This document shows positions 22,337 through 29,950 of a stretch of 64,000 bases of DNA, in pieces. Position 1 is the first letter of the stretch. The number at the start of each line of letters is the position of its first letter. This DNA is from a virus, in IMG/VR virus record IMGVR_UViG_3300025864_000012, positions 30,143 through 94,142 of that record. The stretch is one strand, 5' to 3'. The position numbers and the translations under genes were made by a program. The notes under the pieces were generated by a model. The model was given only the letters and a program-made list of their open reading frames with translations, ran no database searches and had not been told where the DNA came from.

Positions 22337-23140
22337 CTACTCCTCAAATGCTATGTCGAGCTCTGTCAGATCGCTCTCTGACGGCAGCGCCCAGCTAGGT
22401 AGCCAGAGCTCCTCTTCCTCCGGGAAACGACCCGGCCATTCGTTCTTGTCGCGGCACTCTACAAGCTGCCGAAGTAGACGACGCACTTGGTCCTCGCCCA
22501 CGGTGAGCATGTCCTCCGTGATGTCGAACACGCCGACGTCATAGGGCAGGGTCTTCTCGACGGCAAGCAGTTTCACGGGCCGGGCGTAATCCAGGGCTAT
22601 CAGCCCCATGTTGTAAAACGCCAGCTGGCAGTGGTACTGGTAGCGTGCCACTGCGTTCCGGAAGTTGCGATAATCGAGGTCCGCTGTCGACTTGAGGTCC
22701 TGCAGGATCTCCGGTGTGAGCCAGTCCAGTCGGGCCTTGCAGCTCAATCCCGTCTCGGTATCTACCCACATGATGACCTGCTCGGCCTTGCCCTCGCTGA
22801 GATACTGCTTCGCCACGGGGTGGCGGTGCACGGCGTCGCGCATGGCCAATGCCTGCTCGTACTCAGGCGTCTTCAGAATGGTCTTGTCCGCATTTGCCTG
22901 CTTGAACGCCTTGAACGAGTTGGTGTTGCGGTTTTCGTCGTTGAGCACGTAGTCGACCATGAAGCGATCCGGCTCGAAGATGGCCGTATGGATAGCACGC
23001 CCCATCGCGAACACCGCGCTGTCGGTGCGCTCCGCCGTCAGTCTGTAGAGGTAGTGCGCTGGGGAGCGGCCCATTTCCTTGAGGGTGCTCCAGTTGACTG
23101 CCGGAATCTCACAGTAGTCGGCGAAAGGTACAGTTGTCAC
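22337..23140 (-). CDS. PD-(D/E)XK exonuclease, RecE/ExoVIII-like
   Basis: S.LK...SPAHY, G.AIH...EP, CKARLD, DLKST, Y..QLAFY, AVEK..PY. Confidence 0.85.
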   Translation of the reverse strand: MTTVPFADYCEIPAVNWSTLKEMGRSPAHYLYRLTAERTDSAVFAMGRAIHTAIFEPDRFMVDYVLNDENRNTNSFKAFKQANADKTILKTPEYEQALAMRDAVHRHPVAKQYLSEGKAEQVIMWVDTETGLSCKARLDWLTPEILQDLKSTADLDYRNFRNAVARYQYHCQLAFYNMGLIALDYARPVKLLAVEKTLPYDVGVFDITEDMLTVGEDQVRRLLRQLVECRDKNEWPGRFPEEEELWLPSWALPSESDLTELDIAFEE

Positions 23141-23625
23141 CCTTCGTCGTCCTCGTCCTTCAGTGAAGCCCAGCAGACGCCGCATAGCGGCACGCCCTCG
23201 TTGTCGTAGTGAATCGTGTCGGTGGTCCACTCTCCGCAGCCGCCCTCACAGGTCTCGGTGTCGAGGACGGCAATGTGCTCGCACAGTTCGTCGACGCGGC
23301 CCCCGAAGGCGTGCTCCAGAAGGGCGTCGAACGCCGCGAACGCATCGCCCTTGCACATCTTCAGCAGCGTGCGTGTGGCGAACTCTTCTTTGTTGAGGCG
23401 GTTGCTCTCTCCGCGCGCCGCTGACAACAGGTACTCCAGATGCTCAGCACGACGCTCCAGGCCCTTGATAGCGGTCCTGCGGTGCGTGGCCTTGAGATGG
23501 GCGTGCGCGGAGTCTACCCTGAGAGCCTCGACCCTCTCCTCCAACTCAAAGATGTATGTCTTGTCGGCGTTGAGAACCTGCCTGACTTGCGGGTCGTCCA
23601 GTACAGAAGTCATGATGGATGCCAT
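23137..23625 (-). CDS. hypothetical protein
   Basis: Coiled coil plus C-terminal CxxxC...CxxC. Confidence 0.55.
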   Translation of the reverse strand: MASIMTSVLDDPQVRQVLNADKTYIFELEERVEALRVDSAHAHLKATHRRTAIKGLERRAEHLEYLLSAARGESNRLNKEEFATRTLLKMCKGDAFAAFDALLEHAFGGRVDELCEHIAVLDTETCEGGCGEWTTDTIHYDNEGVPLCGVCWASLKDEDDEG

Positions 23626-25112: not shown

Positions 25113-25238
25113 TCACCTCCTTCTACGGTTACGAATAAACAGGACGCCGTAGAACACAAGGCCCACGCCGATGACGAATGGAGCGACTATGAGGGCGTTC
25201 TGTGTCTCTTGCCACCAGAGGTTGAAGTCGAAGCTCAT
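25113..25238 (-). CDS. small membrane peptide (41 aa)
   Basis: ATGA-coupled; TM helix followed by RNRRRR. Confidence 0.5.
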   Translation of the reverse strand: MSFDFNLWWQETQNALIVAPFVIGVGLVFYGVLFIRNRRRR

Positions 25239-26140
25239 TGTGCCCCTGATTCGAACGCTTGCTCCGCGAGCTTCTCCTTGTACCATTCCGGCAGGCCAAA
25301 CGTCGCACGGCGCATCAGCTCAGGGCTGAACTCTTGCCAGAGGAACTTGAGGATCGCGTCACGCTCTTCCTCAGCGATGTCACGCTTGGCCTCGGCTATG
25401 AGCTTACCAATGTCCCTTGGTGAATTCTCGAGCTCCCCGTTGTCCCTGAGGTGCTGGACCGCCTTCTCGAAGCGGGCATCAGTGCGGAATCCATCTTTGA
25501 AAGCGTCCCACTTCCCCTTGGAAGTGTTCTCCTTGCTCCAGCCGCTGATGTGCTTTTCCTTGAACGCCTCACTGACAAACTTGCCGCACATGAGGGGGAT
25601 AGGCTGGCCACCTAGGAGGAAGGGGCGAGCATAGTTCTTGACGACTACGCCCTCTACCTTCGTCCCACCAAGGTAGCTGTCAGTCTCGAGCATGGCCTTC
25701 AGCTCATCGGCTGACTTTATCAGCCCCTGATAAATCAGAGGTACAGCCTCAAGGTCGATACTGCCGGCCAGTTCCGCAAGCTCCTCGTACTCCGAAACGA
25801 AGGTGTCACCGGGCGTGGAGGCACCGAAGATGACGATGTGGTTCCGGGGGATGCGCTGGTAGCAGAGCGTGTTGTGCTTGGGCTTCCTCAGGTACTCGCC
25901 GTAGAACAAGATGTCGTTAGGCAGGTCGACGCTGTGGACATAGTCCCAGGCATCCATGAACATTTTATCAACAGCACCCTCGTACTGCTCCTTGCCCTTG
26001 GAGCGACACTTCGCTTCGCCGTTCACGCGGCCAAACACGAATTGGCTTCCGTCAATTTTCTCGGTGATTTCTACTTCGTCCAGAAACAAATCGGCGATAT
26101 AGTCTTGGCCCACTGCAAATATTTTAGGAAAGGCGTGCAT
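25235..26140 (-). CDS. ATP-dependent RNA ligase, Rnl2-like
   Basis: FPKI N-terminus, motif I TEKIDGSQF, YGE, IFG, VP.IY.G, EGVVVK, K.VSEAFKE. Confidence 0.82.
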   Translation of the reverse strand: MHAFPKIFAVGQDYIADLFLDEVEITEKIDGSQFVFGRVNGEAKCRSKGKEQYEGAVDKMFMDAWDYVHSVDLPNDILFYGEYLRKPKHNTLCYQRIPRNHIVIFGASTPGDTFVSEYEELAELAGSIDLEAVPLIYQGLIKSADELKAMLETDSYLGGTKVEGVVVKNYARPFLLGGQPIPLMCGKFVSEAFKEKHISGWSKENTSKGKWDAFKDGFRTDARFEKAVQHLRDNGELENSPRDIGKLIAEAKRDIAEEERDAILKFLWQEFSPELMRRATFGLPEWYKEKLAEQAFESGAQ

Positions 26141-26852: not shown

Positions 26853-26859
26853 GACTTCC

Positions 26860-27044
26860 GGCAGGACTCTCAGTCCCTGCATCACTTTCGTACGCGGTGC
26901 TCCGACAGATGACCAACTGTCCCGGTTTGGTTGTCCCTACTGAGGGCTGGTGGCGGTCGTTGCCGCCACAGTCGTTTTGTTCTGAGCACATGCGGTACGT
27001 GGTCGAAGAGAGCTTCTCCACCTCGGATGCCTATCTTCACGGCT
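26860..27044 (-). ncRNA. candidate structured ncRNA 3' of tRNA-Asn
   Basis: Nested helices GCATC/GATGC, CGTAC/GTACG, GTGCTC/GAGCAC, GTGGCGG/CCGCCAC, and a GCAGGGAC/GTCCTGC hairpin. Confidence 0.4.
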
Positions 27045-27120
27045 TGGCTGGCGCGGCAGGCATCGAACCTGCGACCGCTCCGGTAACAGCGGAGTGCTCT
27101 ACCTGCTGAGCTACGCGCCA
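27045..27120 (-). tRNA. tRNA-Asn(GTT)
   Basis: 76-nt cloverleaf, anticodon loop CT-GTT-AC, G73, encoded CCA. Confidence 0.95.
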
Positions 27121-27122
27121 AT

Positions 27123-27212
27123 TGGCGGATGAGGTAGGATTCGAACCCACGGAGCTGTTACGCTCGGCTGTTTTCAAGACAGCTGCCTTCAACCAGACTC
27201 GGCCACTCATCC
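27123..27212 (-). tRNA. tRNA-Ser(TGA)
   Basis: Long variable arm, loop CT-TGA-AA, G73, CCA. Confidence 0.95.
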
Positions 27213-27213
27213 T

Positions 27214-27299
27214 TGGCGGATGGAGCAGGATTCGAACCTGCGACGGTGTGACCCGTTGCGGCTTAGCAAGCCGGTGCCTTACCTCTCGGCCATCCATCC
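27214..27299 (-). tRNA. tRNA-Ser(GCT)
   Basis: Long variable arm, loop TT-GCT-AA, G73, CCA; C27-C43 mismatch. Confidence 0.92.
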
Positions 27300-27303
27300 T
27301 TAG

Positions 27304-27392
27304 TGGTGAGCAGGGTAGGATTCGAACCTACAGGAGACCCAGTCTCAACGAGGTTACAGCCCGCCGCGACGCACCGTCTTCGCCGCCCGCTC
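27304..27392 (-). tRNA. tRNA-Tyr(GTA)
   Basis: Long variable arm, loop CT-GTA-AC, A73, CCA; C at position 8. Confidence 0.9.
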
Positions 27393-27395
27393 AAT

Positions 27396-27476
27396 TGGTG
27401 GAGGCGGCCGGAATCGAACCGGCGTCCTCGGGTTGCCCATCAGGCCCTAGCCCAAGTCGATACCATTATCGCCCCC
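27396..27476 (-). ncRNA. tmRNA-like RNA consisting only of the tRNA-like domain (81 nt)
   Basis: GGGGGCG/CGCCTCC acceptor with G3-U70, A73, CCA; stemless D-loop ATAATGGTATCGAC; GAC-GCCGG-TTCGATT-CCGGC T arm; only about 30 nt between D and T regions. Confidence 0.8.
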
Positions 27477-27479
27477 ATT

Positions 27480-27665
27480 TGGCAGCGGCCCCCGATTCTT
27501 CCTGCCGCTACCGTGCGAACCCCTGAATCGTCTCGACCCTGCTGGGGGTCAGGTCCGCGCCCGTCCCGAGACTTCAAGCCAAGCCAAAGGCCGCAGCCGA
27601 CGACTTGGCGCCCGGGGGCCGACTCACGTTGCGACGGTACCAGCTACGCCGTCGTGGTCGGCAGG
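27480..27665 (-). ncRNA. candidate structured RNA, possibly a detached tmRNA mRNA-like domain
   Basis: Closing helix CCTGCCG/CGGCAGG, two pseudoknot-compatible pairings, frame AKSSAAAFGLA* (27609-27574), ends in CCA 3 nt before the tRNA-like domain. Confidence 0.4.
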
Positions 27666-27666
27666 T

Positions 27667-29337: not shown

Positions 29338-29859
29338 TTATTTTGCGCCTCTTGTATAGGCCCCGCACCTTTCTTCTATCTGCTCAATAGACACGGGGTA
29401 GTATTTGCGTCCGTCCCACTCGGTGTCCACCCCTACATCAAACCGCATGCGCAGGCGTGAATCGAGGTGTTCTGGCAGCGGCTTACCGTGCGAGTGGCCA
29501 TGCAGCATCACGGTGTTCGGCCGCCAGGAAAGCCACGGATAGTGACAAACATAGTAGTGGCACTTATTGTGCCGAAAGTCTAGCGCCAGCGGATCGTGCC
29601 TCACCTTCGGATCGTGATTCCCCTTCACCCAGTGCACCGTACATGCGCTTTCCAGCGCAGCGGCGTATGCCCTGAACGTCTCTGGACGGAAGGCGAAGTC
29701 TCCTAGAACATACAGCTCGTCCGAAGGCCGAACCGTCTCTAGGGCATTCGCCAGAAGCGTACTGTTCATCTCGCCGACAGAATGGAACTCGTGGCGCTGC
29801 TTCTGCAGCCATTCGGCCCAGTGGTCGAGGTGGAAGTCTGCGATAAGCAGGATGGTCAC
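29338..29859 (-). CDS. calcineurin-like metallophosphoesterase
   Basis: ADFH, LGDF, GNHD, CHYP, HGHSH, DVGVD. Confidence 0.9.
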   Translation of the reverse strand: MTILLIADFHLDHWAEWLQKQRHEFHSVGEMNSTLLANALETVRPSDELYVLGDFAFRPETFRAYAAALESACTVHWVKGNHDPKVRHDPLALDFRHNKCHYYVCHYPWLSWRPNTVMLHGHSHGKPLPEHLDSRLRMRFDVGVDTEWDGRKYYPVSIEQIEERCGAYTRGAK

Positions 29860-29950
29860 TTCTTGCTCCTCGGCACACCACCCATACCGTACAACATTAC
29901 CGCAAGCTGAACTCTCCAACTCTCAGGGCGATCACTCTGCGCTAGCTCCT

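What the first reader, a model, noticed from the sequence alone, without database searches (positions are those of the whole stretch)
27396..27476. Phage mini-tmRNA: a tRNA-like domain with no mRNA-like domain inside the tRNA cluster
Seen: the minus strand reads GGGGGCG-ATAATGGTATCGAC-TTGGG-CTAGGGCCTGATGGGCAA-CCCGAG-GAC-GCCGG-TTCGATT-CCGGC-CGCCTCC-ACCA. It has a G3-U70 pair and A73 (AlaRS identity), a stemless D-loop ending GG..TCGAC, and the GAC linker before the T arm. Established: these are the hallmarks of the SmpB-binding tRNA-like domain of tmRNA, not of tRNA-Ala, which has a D stem and a UGC/GGC anticodon. Helix 2 normally opens into roughly 270 nt of pseudoknots and tag frame, but here it is capped after about 30 nt. 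It is spaced 3 nt from its neighbours and CCA-ended like the four real tRNAs, so it looks like a maintained gene. Inference: it could be an SmpB/EF-Tu decoy that disables trans-translation, an Ala-donating ribosome-rescue RNA that does not tag proteins for destruction, or one half of a split tmRNA. The capping loop can also be drawn as CU-GAU-GG, an anticodon-like loop.
Basis: partly seen in the sequence, partly recalled or inferred. Interest (0 to 1): 0.92.

Follow-up and report, generated by a model that had tools for sequence, protein, structure and literature searches.

The report
Phage tag-less mini-tmRNA gene
This 94-kb uncultured phage carries a real 81-base gene for only the alanine-accepting, tRNA-like end of the bacterial ribosome-rescue RNA (tmRNA); the type is already known from mycobacteriophage DS6A, is common but mostly unannotated in phages, and probably diverts the host's rescue-and-tagging system.

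Summary
Window 27396-27476 (-) scores 69.9 bits against Rfam tmRNA (cut-off 47). Both ends of the model align, and 16 nt stand in for about 310 model positions. It is not a tRNA and has no tag frame or pseudoknots.

It is not unique. A motif scan found at least 119 viral contigs, giving 82 distinct RNAs of 61-92 nt. All three helices covary strongly. In a second scan that did not fix the acceptor stem, G3:U70 and A73 were kept in 76 of 79 well-paired hits. True copies are rare in 185,579 bacterial genomes. Unannotated copies sit in the tRNA clusters of cultured Streptomyces phages (BRock, LuckySocke and others).

The kind is already published: the "TLD only" tmRNA of mycobacteriophage DS6A, reported to inhibit E. 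coli tmRNA. This scan has also reported it before on other DNA (235 notes in at least 182 genomes). It is therefore a new member of a known kind.

Most likely mechanism: an alanine-charged competitor that depends on host SmpB and keeps stalled ribosomes away from SsrA tagging. No mini-bearing phage that I searched encodes SmpB or a full tmRNA. The "split tmRNA" and "anticodon-like loop" ideas found no support. This phage also encodes a stand-alone GGQ release-factor-like protein, but that protein does not co-occur with minis elsewhere.

The parts
27396..27476 (-). TLD-only (tag-less) mini-tmRNA gene, 81 nt including the encoded CCA
   Evidence: RF00023 at 69.9 bits with model 1-374. The motif matches once against 0 expected. 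It belongs to a covarying family of 82 other distinct sequences.
27470..27476 (-). Acceptor stem, 5' strand (GGGGGCG). G3 pairs with U70.
   Evidence: Acceptor positions 5:68 and 6:67 covary across the family.
27457..27469 (-). D-loop analogue without a D stem (AUAAUGGUAUCGA), holding the conserved GG and UCGA(C)
   Evidence: Rfam alignment. The G of the GG is at least 90% conserved in alignment A1 although the search pattern did not impose it.
27451..27456 (-). Helix 2a, 5' strand (CUUGGG)
   Evidence: Fold. Four of the five counted pairs show changes on both sides, and all six standard pair types occur.
27433..27450 (-). Cap of helix 2: a 5' internal loop, a short 3-4-bp hairpin and AA. This replaces about 310 nt of pseudoknots and tag frame.
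   Evidence: The same two-tier 'class L' layout is seen in most of the 73-86-nt family members.
27427..27432 (-). Helix 2a, 3' strand (CCCGAG)
27424..27426 (-). GAC linker before the T arm
   Evidence: The A is invariant in 82 of 82 sequences although the pattern did not impose it.
27407..27423 (-). T arm (GCCGG-UUCGAUU-CCGGC)
   Evidence: Three of the five T-stem pairs covary.
27396..27406 (-). Acceptor stem 3' strand (CGCCUCC), discriminator A73 and encoded CCA
   Evidence: In the scan that left the acceptor free, 76 of 79 well-paired hits have G3:U70 with A73.
27045..27392 (-). Four co-oriented tRNA genes directly 3' of the mini: Tyr-GTA 27304-27392, Ser-GCT 27214-27299, Ser-TGA 27123-27212, Asn-GTT 27045-27120. 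They are probably co-transcribed and processed with it.
   Evidence: ARAGORN and Rfam
27477..27666 (-). 190-nt non-coding gap 5' of the mini. It holds a tag-like frame AKSSAAAFGLA* at 27574-27609, which I judge compatible with chance.
   Evidence: There is no Rfam tmRNA part here and the fold z-score is -1.45. Tag-like frames occur upstream in 11 of 75 loci, against 10 of 75 antisense.

Best explanation
The element is a phage gene for a tag-less mini-tmRNA, that is, the tRNA-like domain (TLD) alone. I infer the following steps. It is transcribed with the adjacent tRNAs and trimmed by host RNase P and 3' processing. Host AlaRS charges it with alanine through G3:U70 and A73. Host SmpB binds it and EF-Tu delivers it. 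It then competes with host tmRNA for SmpB and for the empty A site of ribosomes stalled on broken or non-stop mRNAs. Because it has no resume codon or tag frame, the nascent chain receives at most one alanine and no SsrA degradation tag. The net effect is that host trans-translation and tagging are inhibited or bypassed during infection. Shown here: the identity of the gene, the family it belongs to, the structural constraint on it, the conserved alanine identity, and the absence of a phage SmpB. Inferred: expression, charging, SmpB binding and the effect on tagging.
For: Identity: RF00023 scores 69.9 bits across the whole model with the middle deleted.

Family: at least 119 IMG/VR contigs give 82 other distinct sequences. 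In the alignment, 97.5% of cells are paired. The covariation score is 0.602 against 0.134 in shuffles (0 of 500 reach it) and at most 0.17 with slid partners.

Alanine identity is under selection. In the scan that left the acceptor stem free, 76 of 79 hits with at least 6 of 7 acceptor pairs keep G3:U70 and A73, while positions 4-7 vary freely. CCA is encoded in 40 of 83 sequences, including this one.

Dependence on host factors: SmpB is absent from this complete phage and from 45 other mini-bearing records. None of those carries a full-length tmRNA.

Phage specificity: only about 8 true minis turn up in 185,579 bacterial genomes. Neighbouring genes are portal, terminase, DnaB, ERF and the like.

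Literature: the DS6A-type TLD-only RNA inhibits endogenous tmRNA in E. coli, perhaps by titrating SmpB (PMC4131195, PMC11915505). A TLD-only RNA accepts peptidyl transfer in vitro (Shimizu and Ueda 2006, as cited in PMC3895274).
Against: The published inhibition was said to work 'whether or not chargeable', so charging may not be needed for that effect. What happens to a ribosome holding peptidyl-Ala-TLD with no message is unknown. No benefit to a phage has been demonstrated. No partner gene is shared across the family that would point to a pathway.
Confidence: 0.5

Rival explanations
1. Pure SmpB sponge. The RNA works only by sequestering host SmpB, and so destabilises or disables host tmRNA. 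It never needs to be charged or to enter the ribosome.
For: [quoted passage not shown] No phage SmpB is present. The elbow and helix-2a features are all retained.
Against: G3:U70 and A73 are nearly universal across very divergent acceptor stems (76 of 79). CCA is often encoded. A sponge would not need a G.U wobble that a single mutation to G-C would stabilise.
Confidence: 0.2
2. Productive tag-free ribosome rescue for the phage. Ala-mini with SmpB rescues ribosomes stalled on cut phage or host mRNAs. The peptidyl-Ala-RNA is then hydrolysed by a stop-independent GGQ factor: host ArfB or Pth, or in this phage its own 115-aa GGQ protein. Ribosomes are recycled and phage proteins escape degradation.
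For: The conserved alanine identity implies action on the ribosome. TLD-only RNA accepts the peptide in vitro. This genome encodes a stand-alone GGQ protein (PF00472, 49 bits against a cut-off of 35; best solved match is the GGQ domain of PrfH). The genome is rich in RNA-repair genes. Earlier first-stage notes on the same genome, which I did not check, report RtcB, a CCA-adding enzyme and hammerhead ribozymes.
Against: The GGQ family is absent from 45 other mini-bearing phage records. None of 28 phage records that carry the GGQ protein has a mini; one has a full tmRNA. No Pth is present. The GGQ gene lies about 30 kb from the mini. RtcB occurs in only 2 of 45 and RNA ligase in only 5 of 45 mini-bearing records.
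Confidence: 0.15
3. Split tmRNA. The 190-nt region 5' of the mini is a detached mRNA-like domain carrying the tag AKSSAAAFGLA*, and it works together with the TLD.
For: A GCC-initiated 11-codon frame ending in LA-stop lies at 27574-27609.
Against: Helix 2 of the mini is closed by its own hairpin, so no strand is free to tether a second piece. No Rfam tmRNA family, standard or permuted, matches upstream; RF04321 reaches 31.5 bits on the T arm only. The fold is no better than shuffles (z = -1.45). Tag-like frames upstream occur in 11 of 75 loci, against 10 of 75 antisense and 7-9 of 75 downstream. The sequence before the frame is G+C-rich, whereas in my recollection the stretch before a resume codon is usually A-rich. 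No relatives were found for a covariation test.
Confidence: 0.04
4. Not a functional gene of this kind. It could be a decayed tRNA-Ala, a remnant of a recently deleted full tmRNA, or an attP-type fragment left by integration into host ssrA.
For: Phages that integrate into ssrA do carry tmRNA fragments. Several hits of my relaxed scan are 3' ends of full-length tmRNAs.
Against: Both halves of the acceptor stem and the D-loop analogue are present. There is no D stem and no anticodon arm. All helices covary across 82 distinct relatives. All homologues are minis and none is full-length. This genome has no tyrosine integrase. The same element occurs in Streptomyces phages of a cluster described as lacking an integrase.
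Confidence: 0.02

Closest known systems
'TLD only' (CDS-less) tmRNA of Mycobacterium phage DS6A (tmRNA Website tmID 11587; Mao et al. 2009; Hudson, Lau and Williams 2014, PMC4131195; PMC11915505)
   Same: Both are phage-borne. Both have a complete alanine-type tRNA-like domain, with helix 2 closed by a purine-rich internal loop and a short hairpin, and are about 80 nt long. Both match my TLD-only motif. Neither phage encodes SmpB.
   Different: No detectable primary-sequence similarity outside the conserved core: blastn of this element did not find DS6A. DS6A does not encode CCA and scores 43.2 bits on Rfam, below the cut-off, against 69.9 bits here. DS6A's copy stands alone between protein genes in a temperate phage. 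This one heads a tRNA cluster in a phage with no tyrosine integrase.
Unannotated minis in the tRNA clusters of cultured Streptomyces phages BRock, LuckySocke, GiJojo, Alone3 and pSt2308
   Same: They have the same class-L layout and score 57-64.5 bits on Rfam. They sit among Val, Ser, Ile, His and Tyr tRNAs upstream of an RNA ligase gene. That neighbourhood resembles the one here: mini, Tyr, Ser, Ser, Asn, then an Rnl2-type ligase.
   Different: The cap hairpin is of the DS6A type (CCGCACGCGG). LuckySocke's copy does not encode CCA. The ligases are not close relatives: tblastn with this window's ligase finds only Bacillus and Brevibacillus phage ligases at under 30% identity.
Engineered TLD fragments of bacterial tmRNA used for SmpB co-crystals and in vitro trans-translation assays (Shimizu and Ueda 2006, via PMC3895274; the structural work is from my own knowledge)
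   Same: The design is the same: acceptor stem, D-loop analogue, helix 2a capped by a loop, and T arm. Such RNAs are reported to accept peptidyl transfer with SmpB and EF-Tu.
   Different: Those are laboratory truncations of host tmRNA. This is a natural gene under evolutionary constraint.
CDS-less organellar tmRNAs (a mitochondrial form and the ~65-bp Mallomonadaceae plastid forms; PMC11915505)
   Same: They consist of the tRNA-like domain only, have no tag frame, and are presumed to act with an SmpB encoded elsewhere.
   Different: They belong to organelles and are the cell's own reduced rescue RNA. They are not a viral gene introduced into a cell that already has a full tmRNA.
Full-length phage tmRNAs (cluster C mycobacteriophages such as Bxz1, Bacillus phage G, the two-piece ssrA of Methylophilales phage Melnitz)
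   Same: They are phage-encoded and have a TLD with alanine identity.
   Different: They keep the pseudoknots and a tag reading frame. This element has neither.

Membership tests
tmRNA (Rfam RF00023), tRNA-like domain | Score above the curated Rfam gathering threshold, with both ends of the model aligned | tested here: met
   69.9 bits against 47, model positions 1-374. A real tRNA-Ala scores 34 bits.
tmRNA (Rfam RF00023), tRNA-like domain | 7-bp acceptor stem with G3:U70, discriminator A73 and a CCA end (the AlaRS identity set) | tested here: met
   Read directly from the sequence. Conserved in 76 of 79 family hits in the scan that did not impose it.
tmRNA (Rfam RF00023), tRNA-like domain | No D stem; D-loop analogue with GG...UCGAC; GAC linker; helix 2a in place of an anticodon arm | tested here: met
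   Rfam structural alignment. Helix 2a covaries.
Canonical (full) tmRNA | mRNA-like domain: resume codon, tag reading frame with a stop, and pseudoknots PK1-PK4 inside the helix-2 loop | tested here: not met
   Only 16 nt lie between the helix-2a strands where the model has about 310 positions. It is therefore not a canonical tmRNA.
TLD-only / CDS-less tmRNA (DS6A type) | Complete TLD with helix 2 capped by a short hairpin, under about 100 nt in total, and no tag frame | tested here: met
TLD-only / CDS-less tmRNA (DS6A type) | Inhibits endogenous tmRNA function when expressed (the property reported for the DS6A-type molecule) | not testable with these tools
   Known only from the literature for the DS6A-type RNA.
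TLD-only / CDS-less tmRNA (DS6A type) | Binds SmpB and is alanylated | not testable with these tools
   No tool here models RNA-protein binding. Indirect support comes from the conserved identity elements and from the absence of a phage SmpB.
Canonical tRNA-Ala | D stem and a 7-nt anticodon loop carrying an NGC anticodon | tested here: not met
   ARAGORN makes no tRNA call. The tRNA model is outscored by tmRNA within the clan. The cap loop varies in length and sequence across the family.
Two-piece (permuted) tmRNA | Separate acceptor and coding pieces held together by helix 2, and a match to the permuted tmRNA models | tested here: not met
   RF04321 reaches 31.5 bits against 47, on the T arm only. 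Helix 2 is closed within the molecule. ARAGORN's permuted call overlaps real tRNA genes.

The most novel reading that the evidence does not exclude
In this phage the mini-tmRNA and the phage's own stand-alone 115-aa GGQ protein together form a self-contained, tag-free ribosome-rescue pathway: alanine is added, then the chain is hydrolysed without a stop codon. This would shield phage proteins made from deliberately or defensively cut mRNAs from SsrA-directed proteolysis. The RNA would then be a viral re-wiring of ribosome quality control rather than a simple decoy.
Probability: 0.1. Interest if true: 0.8.

Novelty: new member of a known kind. Interest (0 to 1): 0.42.

Why it matters
Trans-translation is the main ribosome-rescue and protein-tagging system of bacteria, and it is a drug target. 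A natural 80-nt viral RNA that keeps exactly the parts needed to be charged, bind SmpB and enter the ribosome is a compact natural probe or inhibitor of that system. The family appears to be common in phages yet escapes annotation. ARAGORN misses it or mis-sizes it. Rfam labels it plain 'tmRNA'. GenBank records of cultured Streptomyces phages leave it blank. So phage 'tmRNA' counts and annotation pipelines need correcting. Tractable phages (DS6A, BRock, LuckySocke) are available to test what phages gain from blocking or bypassing SsrA tagging. For this window alone the finding is confirmatory rather than new.

Tried and rejected
- My first scan pattern had a mis-typed acceptor strand and found nothing, not even the window itself. 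I corrected it.
- blastn of the element against 50,697 phage records gave only partial T-arm hits.
- Synteny route to close relatives: the upstream ORF has no relatives in IMG/VR. Five relatives of the ligase (39-52% identity) have no mini nearby. A covariation test of the 190-nt upstream gap was therefore not possible.
- Detached mRNA-like domain idea: rejected as unsupported.
- Partner-gene hunt in 45 mini-bearing records: SmpB 0, RF-1/GGQ 0, RtcB 2, RNA ligase 5. In this genome Pth is absent. All-against-all clustering of neighbouring ORFs gave only ordinary phage modules.
- Reverse test: none of 28 GGQ-bearing phage records has a mini.
- Bacterial genome scan: 48 hits, but about 40 are 3' ends of normal full-length tmRNAs whose 'acceptor' does not pair.
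The actinobacterial guess rests only on a tRNA/ligase/Ro-type toolkit like that of Streptomyces BE-cluster phages.
- Mao et al. 2009 (PubMed id 19617710) is not held in the library. Its result is cited only through PMC4131195 and PMC11915505.

Full report
**1. The observation**

The minus strand of 27396-27476 reads, from 5' to 3':
- a 7-bp acceptor strand, GGGGGCG;
- a 13-nt stemless D-loop analogue ending in UCGA;
- a 6-bp helix (CUUGGG pairing with CCCGAG) closed by an 18-nt cap;
- a GAC linker;
- a T arm, GCCGG-UUCGAUU-CCGGC;
- the acceptor 3' strand CGCCUCC, which gives G3:U70;
- A73 and an encoded CCA.

Rfam's tmRNA model RF00023 matches exactly these coordinates at 69.9 bits (gathering score 47). 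It aligns model positions 1-374, with 16 nt where the model has about 310 positions of pseudoknots and tag frame. A genuine phage tRNA-Ala met later scores only 34 bits on the same model.

ARAGORN calls the four neighbouring tRNAs: Tyr-GTA, Ser-GCT, Ser-TGA and Asn-GTT. All are on the minus strand, all encode CCA, and the first lies 3 nt after the element. ARAGORN does not call the element itself. It reports a 423-nt permuted "tmRNA" whose supposed tag lies inside the tRNA-Ser genes, which is an artefact. The minimum-free-energy fold reproduces the cloverleaf-minus-two-arms structure.

**2. Where it sits**

The window is part of a 94,142-bp IMG/VR virus record that CheckV rates 100% complete. 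The genes around the element all run on the minus strand. Downstream of the tRNA cluster lies an RNA ligase (PF09414, 25235-26140). Upstream lies a calcineurin-like phosphoesterase (29338-29919). The genome has no SmpB, no peptidyl-tRNA hydrolase and no tyrosine integrase.

**3. It belongs to a large phage family**

I wrote a motif that requires both acceptor strands, UCGAC and the T arm, with only 15-45 nt between UCGAC and the T arm. It matches the window once (0.00 expected) and also matches mycobacteriophage DS6A. These give 82 distinct sequences of 61-92 nt besides the window's own.

On their alignment (A1) the three helices behave as follows:
- 97.5% of cells are paired.
- The covariation score is 0.602, against 0.134 in shuffles (0 of 500 reach it) and at most 0.17 when partners are slid by 1-3 columns.
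- Helix 2a has changes on both sides in 4 of 5 pairs and shows all six standard pair types.
- The T stem covaries in 3 of 5 pairs.
- Acceptor positions 5:68 and 6:67 covary.

Several bases that the pattern did not impose are invariant or nearly so: the A of the GAC linker, the G before it, and a G in the D-loop analogue.

Two layouts exist. Class S (61-68 nt) has helix 2a as a plain hairpin. Class L (73-86 nt) has helix 2a, a purine-rich 5' internal loop and a 3-4-bp hairpin.

**4. The family is viral, and the alanine identity is under selection**

The same motif run over one genome from each of 185,579 prokaryote species gave 48 hits. About 40 of them are the 3' ends of ordinary full-length tmRNAs in which the "acceptor" does not pair. 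Only about 8 are true minis, mostly on MAG contigs.

Neighbouring genes in the viral loci are portal, large terminase, ClpP-type prohead protease, DnaB, ERF, endonuclease VII and PD-(D/E)XK nuclease.

A second scan fixed nothing in the acceptor stem. Among its hits with at least 6 of 7 acceptor pairs, 76 of 79 have G3:U70 and A73. One of the three exceptions is a real tRNA. Fourteen fully paired minis that the strict motif had missed all have both features, while positions 4-7 vary freely. A G.U wobble kept across such divergence argues that alanylation matters.

**5. Dependence on the host**

I searched the whole records of 45 mini-bearing phages. Thirteen are at least 90% complete and four are cultured phages.
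- None encodes SmpB.
- None has a full-length tmRNA.
- All RF00023 hits that cover the whole model and score above 40 bits are 64-95 nt long. Weaker hits of 30 bits or less appear to be tRNAs, as a real tRNA-Ala scores 34 bits.
- 41 of 45 records score above the Rfam threshold.

Only 12 of 120 loci have a tRNA within 300 nt of the mini, so the tRNA-cluster position seen here is the minority arrangement.

That arrangement recurs in cultured Streptomyces phages. BRock, LuckySocke, GiJojo, Alone3 and pSt2308 each carry an 81-nt mini (57-64.5 bits) between tRNA-Val and the tRNA-Ser genes, upstream of an RNA ligase. It is unannotated in every record, and in GiJojo a "hypothetical protein" CDS lies over it.

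**6. What is already known**

Hudson, Lau and Williams (2014) list "Mycobacterium phage DS6A (TLD only)". They state that a similar molecule, chargeable or not, strongly inhibits tmRNA, perhaps by titrating SmpB, and cite Mao et al. 2009 (PMC4131195). The 2025 tmRNA database paper repeats this, and adds CDS-less plastid forms alongside the already known CDS-less mitochondrial tmRNA (PMC11915505).

DS6A's element (JN698994, 28478-28560) scores 43.2 bits and does not encode CCA. Peptidyl transfer to a TLD-only RNA in vitro is reported by Shimizu and Ueda 2006, as cited in PMC3895274.

My full-text searches found no paper that describes the family beyond DS6A. Announcements for cluster BE phages simply count "one tmRNA".

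Within this scan the kind has been reported many times on other DNA: 235 notes in at least 182 genomes, with follow-ups that reached the same reading. My results were obtained before I read those notes, and they agree.

**7. Mechanism**

The best-supported reading is an alanine-charged, tag-less competitor of host tmRNA that depends on host SmpB and EF-Tu. [quoted passage not shown]

Shown here: the gene's identity, the structural constraint, the conserved alanine identity, and the absence of a phage SmpB or full tmRNA. Taken from the literature: inhibition in E. coli and peptidyl transfer in vitro. Inferred: expression, charging and the benefit to the phage.

A pure SmpB sponge remains possible, but it fits poorly with the conserved G3:U70.

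A productive tag-free rescue pathway is attractive for this particular phage. Its genome encodes a 115-aa stand-alone GGQ protein at about G000 26,856-27,203, which lies outside the window. It scores 49 bits on PF00472, and its best solved match is the GGQ domain of PrfH. It belongs to a conserved phage family with an invariant GxGxGGQKxNKT motif; the search returned 35 loci and I aligned 15 sequences.

However, that family is absent from the 45 other mini-bearing records. None of 28 GGQ-bearing records has a mini. RtcB (2 of 45) and RNA ligase (5 of 45) are also only occasional companions. The mini is therefore an independent module that relies on host factors.

**8. The split-tmRNA idea**

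An earlier first-stage note proposed a detached mRNA-like domain with the tag AKSSAAAFGLA* at 27574-27609. I found nothing to support it:
- No Rfam tmRNA part lies upstream.
- The fold is no better than shuffled sequence (z = -1.45).
- Helix 2 of the mini is closed on itself, so it offers no strand for pairing with a second piece.
- Across 75 distinct loci, tag-like frames upstream on the sense strand (11) are no commoner than antisense (10) or downstream (7-9).

No close relatives of this phage were available for a covariation test, so this is unsupported rather than excluded.

**9. Verdict**

This is a real, well-formed tag-less mini-tmRNA gene. It is a new member of a known kind (the DS6A type), and that kind is much commoner in phages than the literature I could search suggests. 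The function remains to be tested, and cultured carrier phages exist for that purpose.

Noticed in passing
Same genome, outside the window: L228:1351-1698 (-), about G000:C1:26856-27203: A stand-alone 115-aa GGQ (RF-1 domain) protein with no codon-recognition domains. It scores 49 bits on PF00472, and its best solved match is the GGQ domain of PrfH. It belongs to a conserved family of ~110-aa phage proteins with an invariant GxGxGGQKxNKT motif; the search returned 35 IMG/VR loci, of which I aligned 15 sequences. It is a candidate stop-independent peptidyl-tRNA hydrolase. It does not co-occur with minis elsewhere.
   Followed up: partly
window 25235-26140 (-), 29338-29919 (-), 22337-23230 (-): An RNA ligase (PF09414) lies just downstream of the tRNA cluster. 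A calcineurin-like phosphoesterase and a DUF3799 PD-(D/E)XK protein are nearby. Together they look like an RNA/tRNA repair neighbourhood. The ligase's nearest cultured relatives are Bacillus and Brevibacillus phage ligases at under 30% identity.
   Followed up: partly
L177:2491-2571 (BRock KX925554), L178:2501-2581 (LuckySocke OR725497), L179:2501-2581 (pSt2308 PV588686); also GiJojo PP725410 17025-17104 and Alone3 OR725492 18155-18234: Cultured Streptomyces phages carry an 81-nt mini-tmRNA inside their tRNA clusters. None of the GenBank records annotates it, and in GiJojo a 'hypothetical protein' CDS is drawn over it.
   Followed up: yes
L178:2367-2493 (+), Streptomyces phage LuckySocke: A 127-nt stretch between tRNA-Val and the mini matches the tRNA model end to end (36.9 bits) with a roughly 55-nt insertion. 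It may be an unannotated intron-containing or otherwise interrupted tRNA.
   Followed up: no
L118:10163-10254 (-) inside ORF L118:10152-11705 (-); the same form in L011, L013, L014, L059, L084, L088: The 92-nt mini variants lie within the last ~100 nt of a lambda-type portal ORF, just before a ClpP-type prohead protease gene. Either the RNA gene overlaps the end of the portal coding sequence, or the portal ORF call runs too far.
   Followed up: no
L006:2976-3318, L021, L110, L029:10221-10616, L105: In a few loci ARAGORN extends the mini's 3' end to a distant upstream 5' strand and reports 340-670-nt 'tmRNAs' with implausible tags. Where I checked with Rfam (the records behind L006, L021 and L029), the hit is only the 83-85-nt mini. 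Such calls could inflate counts of 'full' phage tmRNAs.
   Followed up: partly
L177:4153-4234 and L177:2674-2754 (BRock KX925554): The record annotates tRNA-Tyr and tRNA-Cys on the strand opposite to their neighbours. Rfam places the tRNA-Tyr on the same strand as the rest of the cluster, so the annotation probably has the wrong strand.
   Followed up: no
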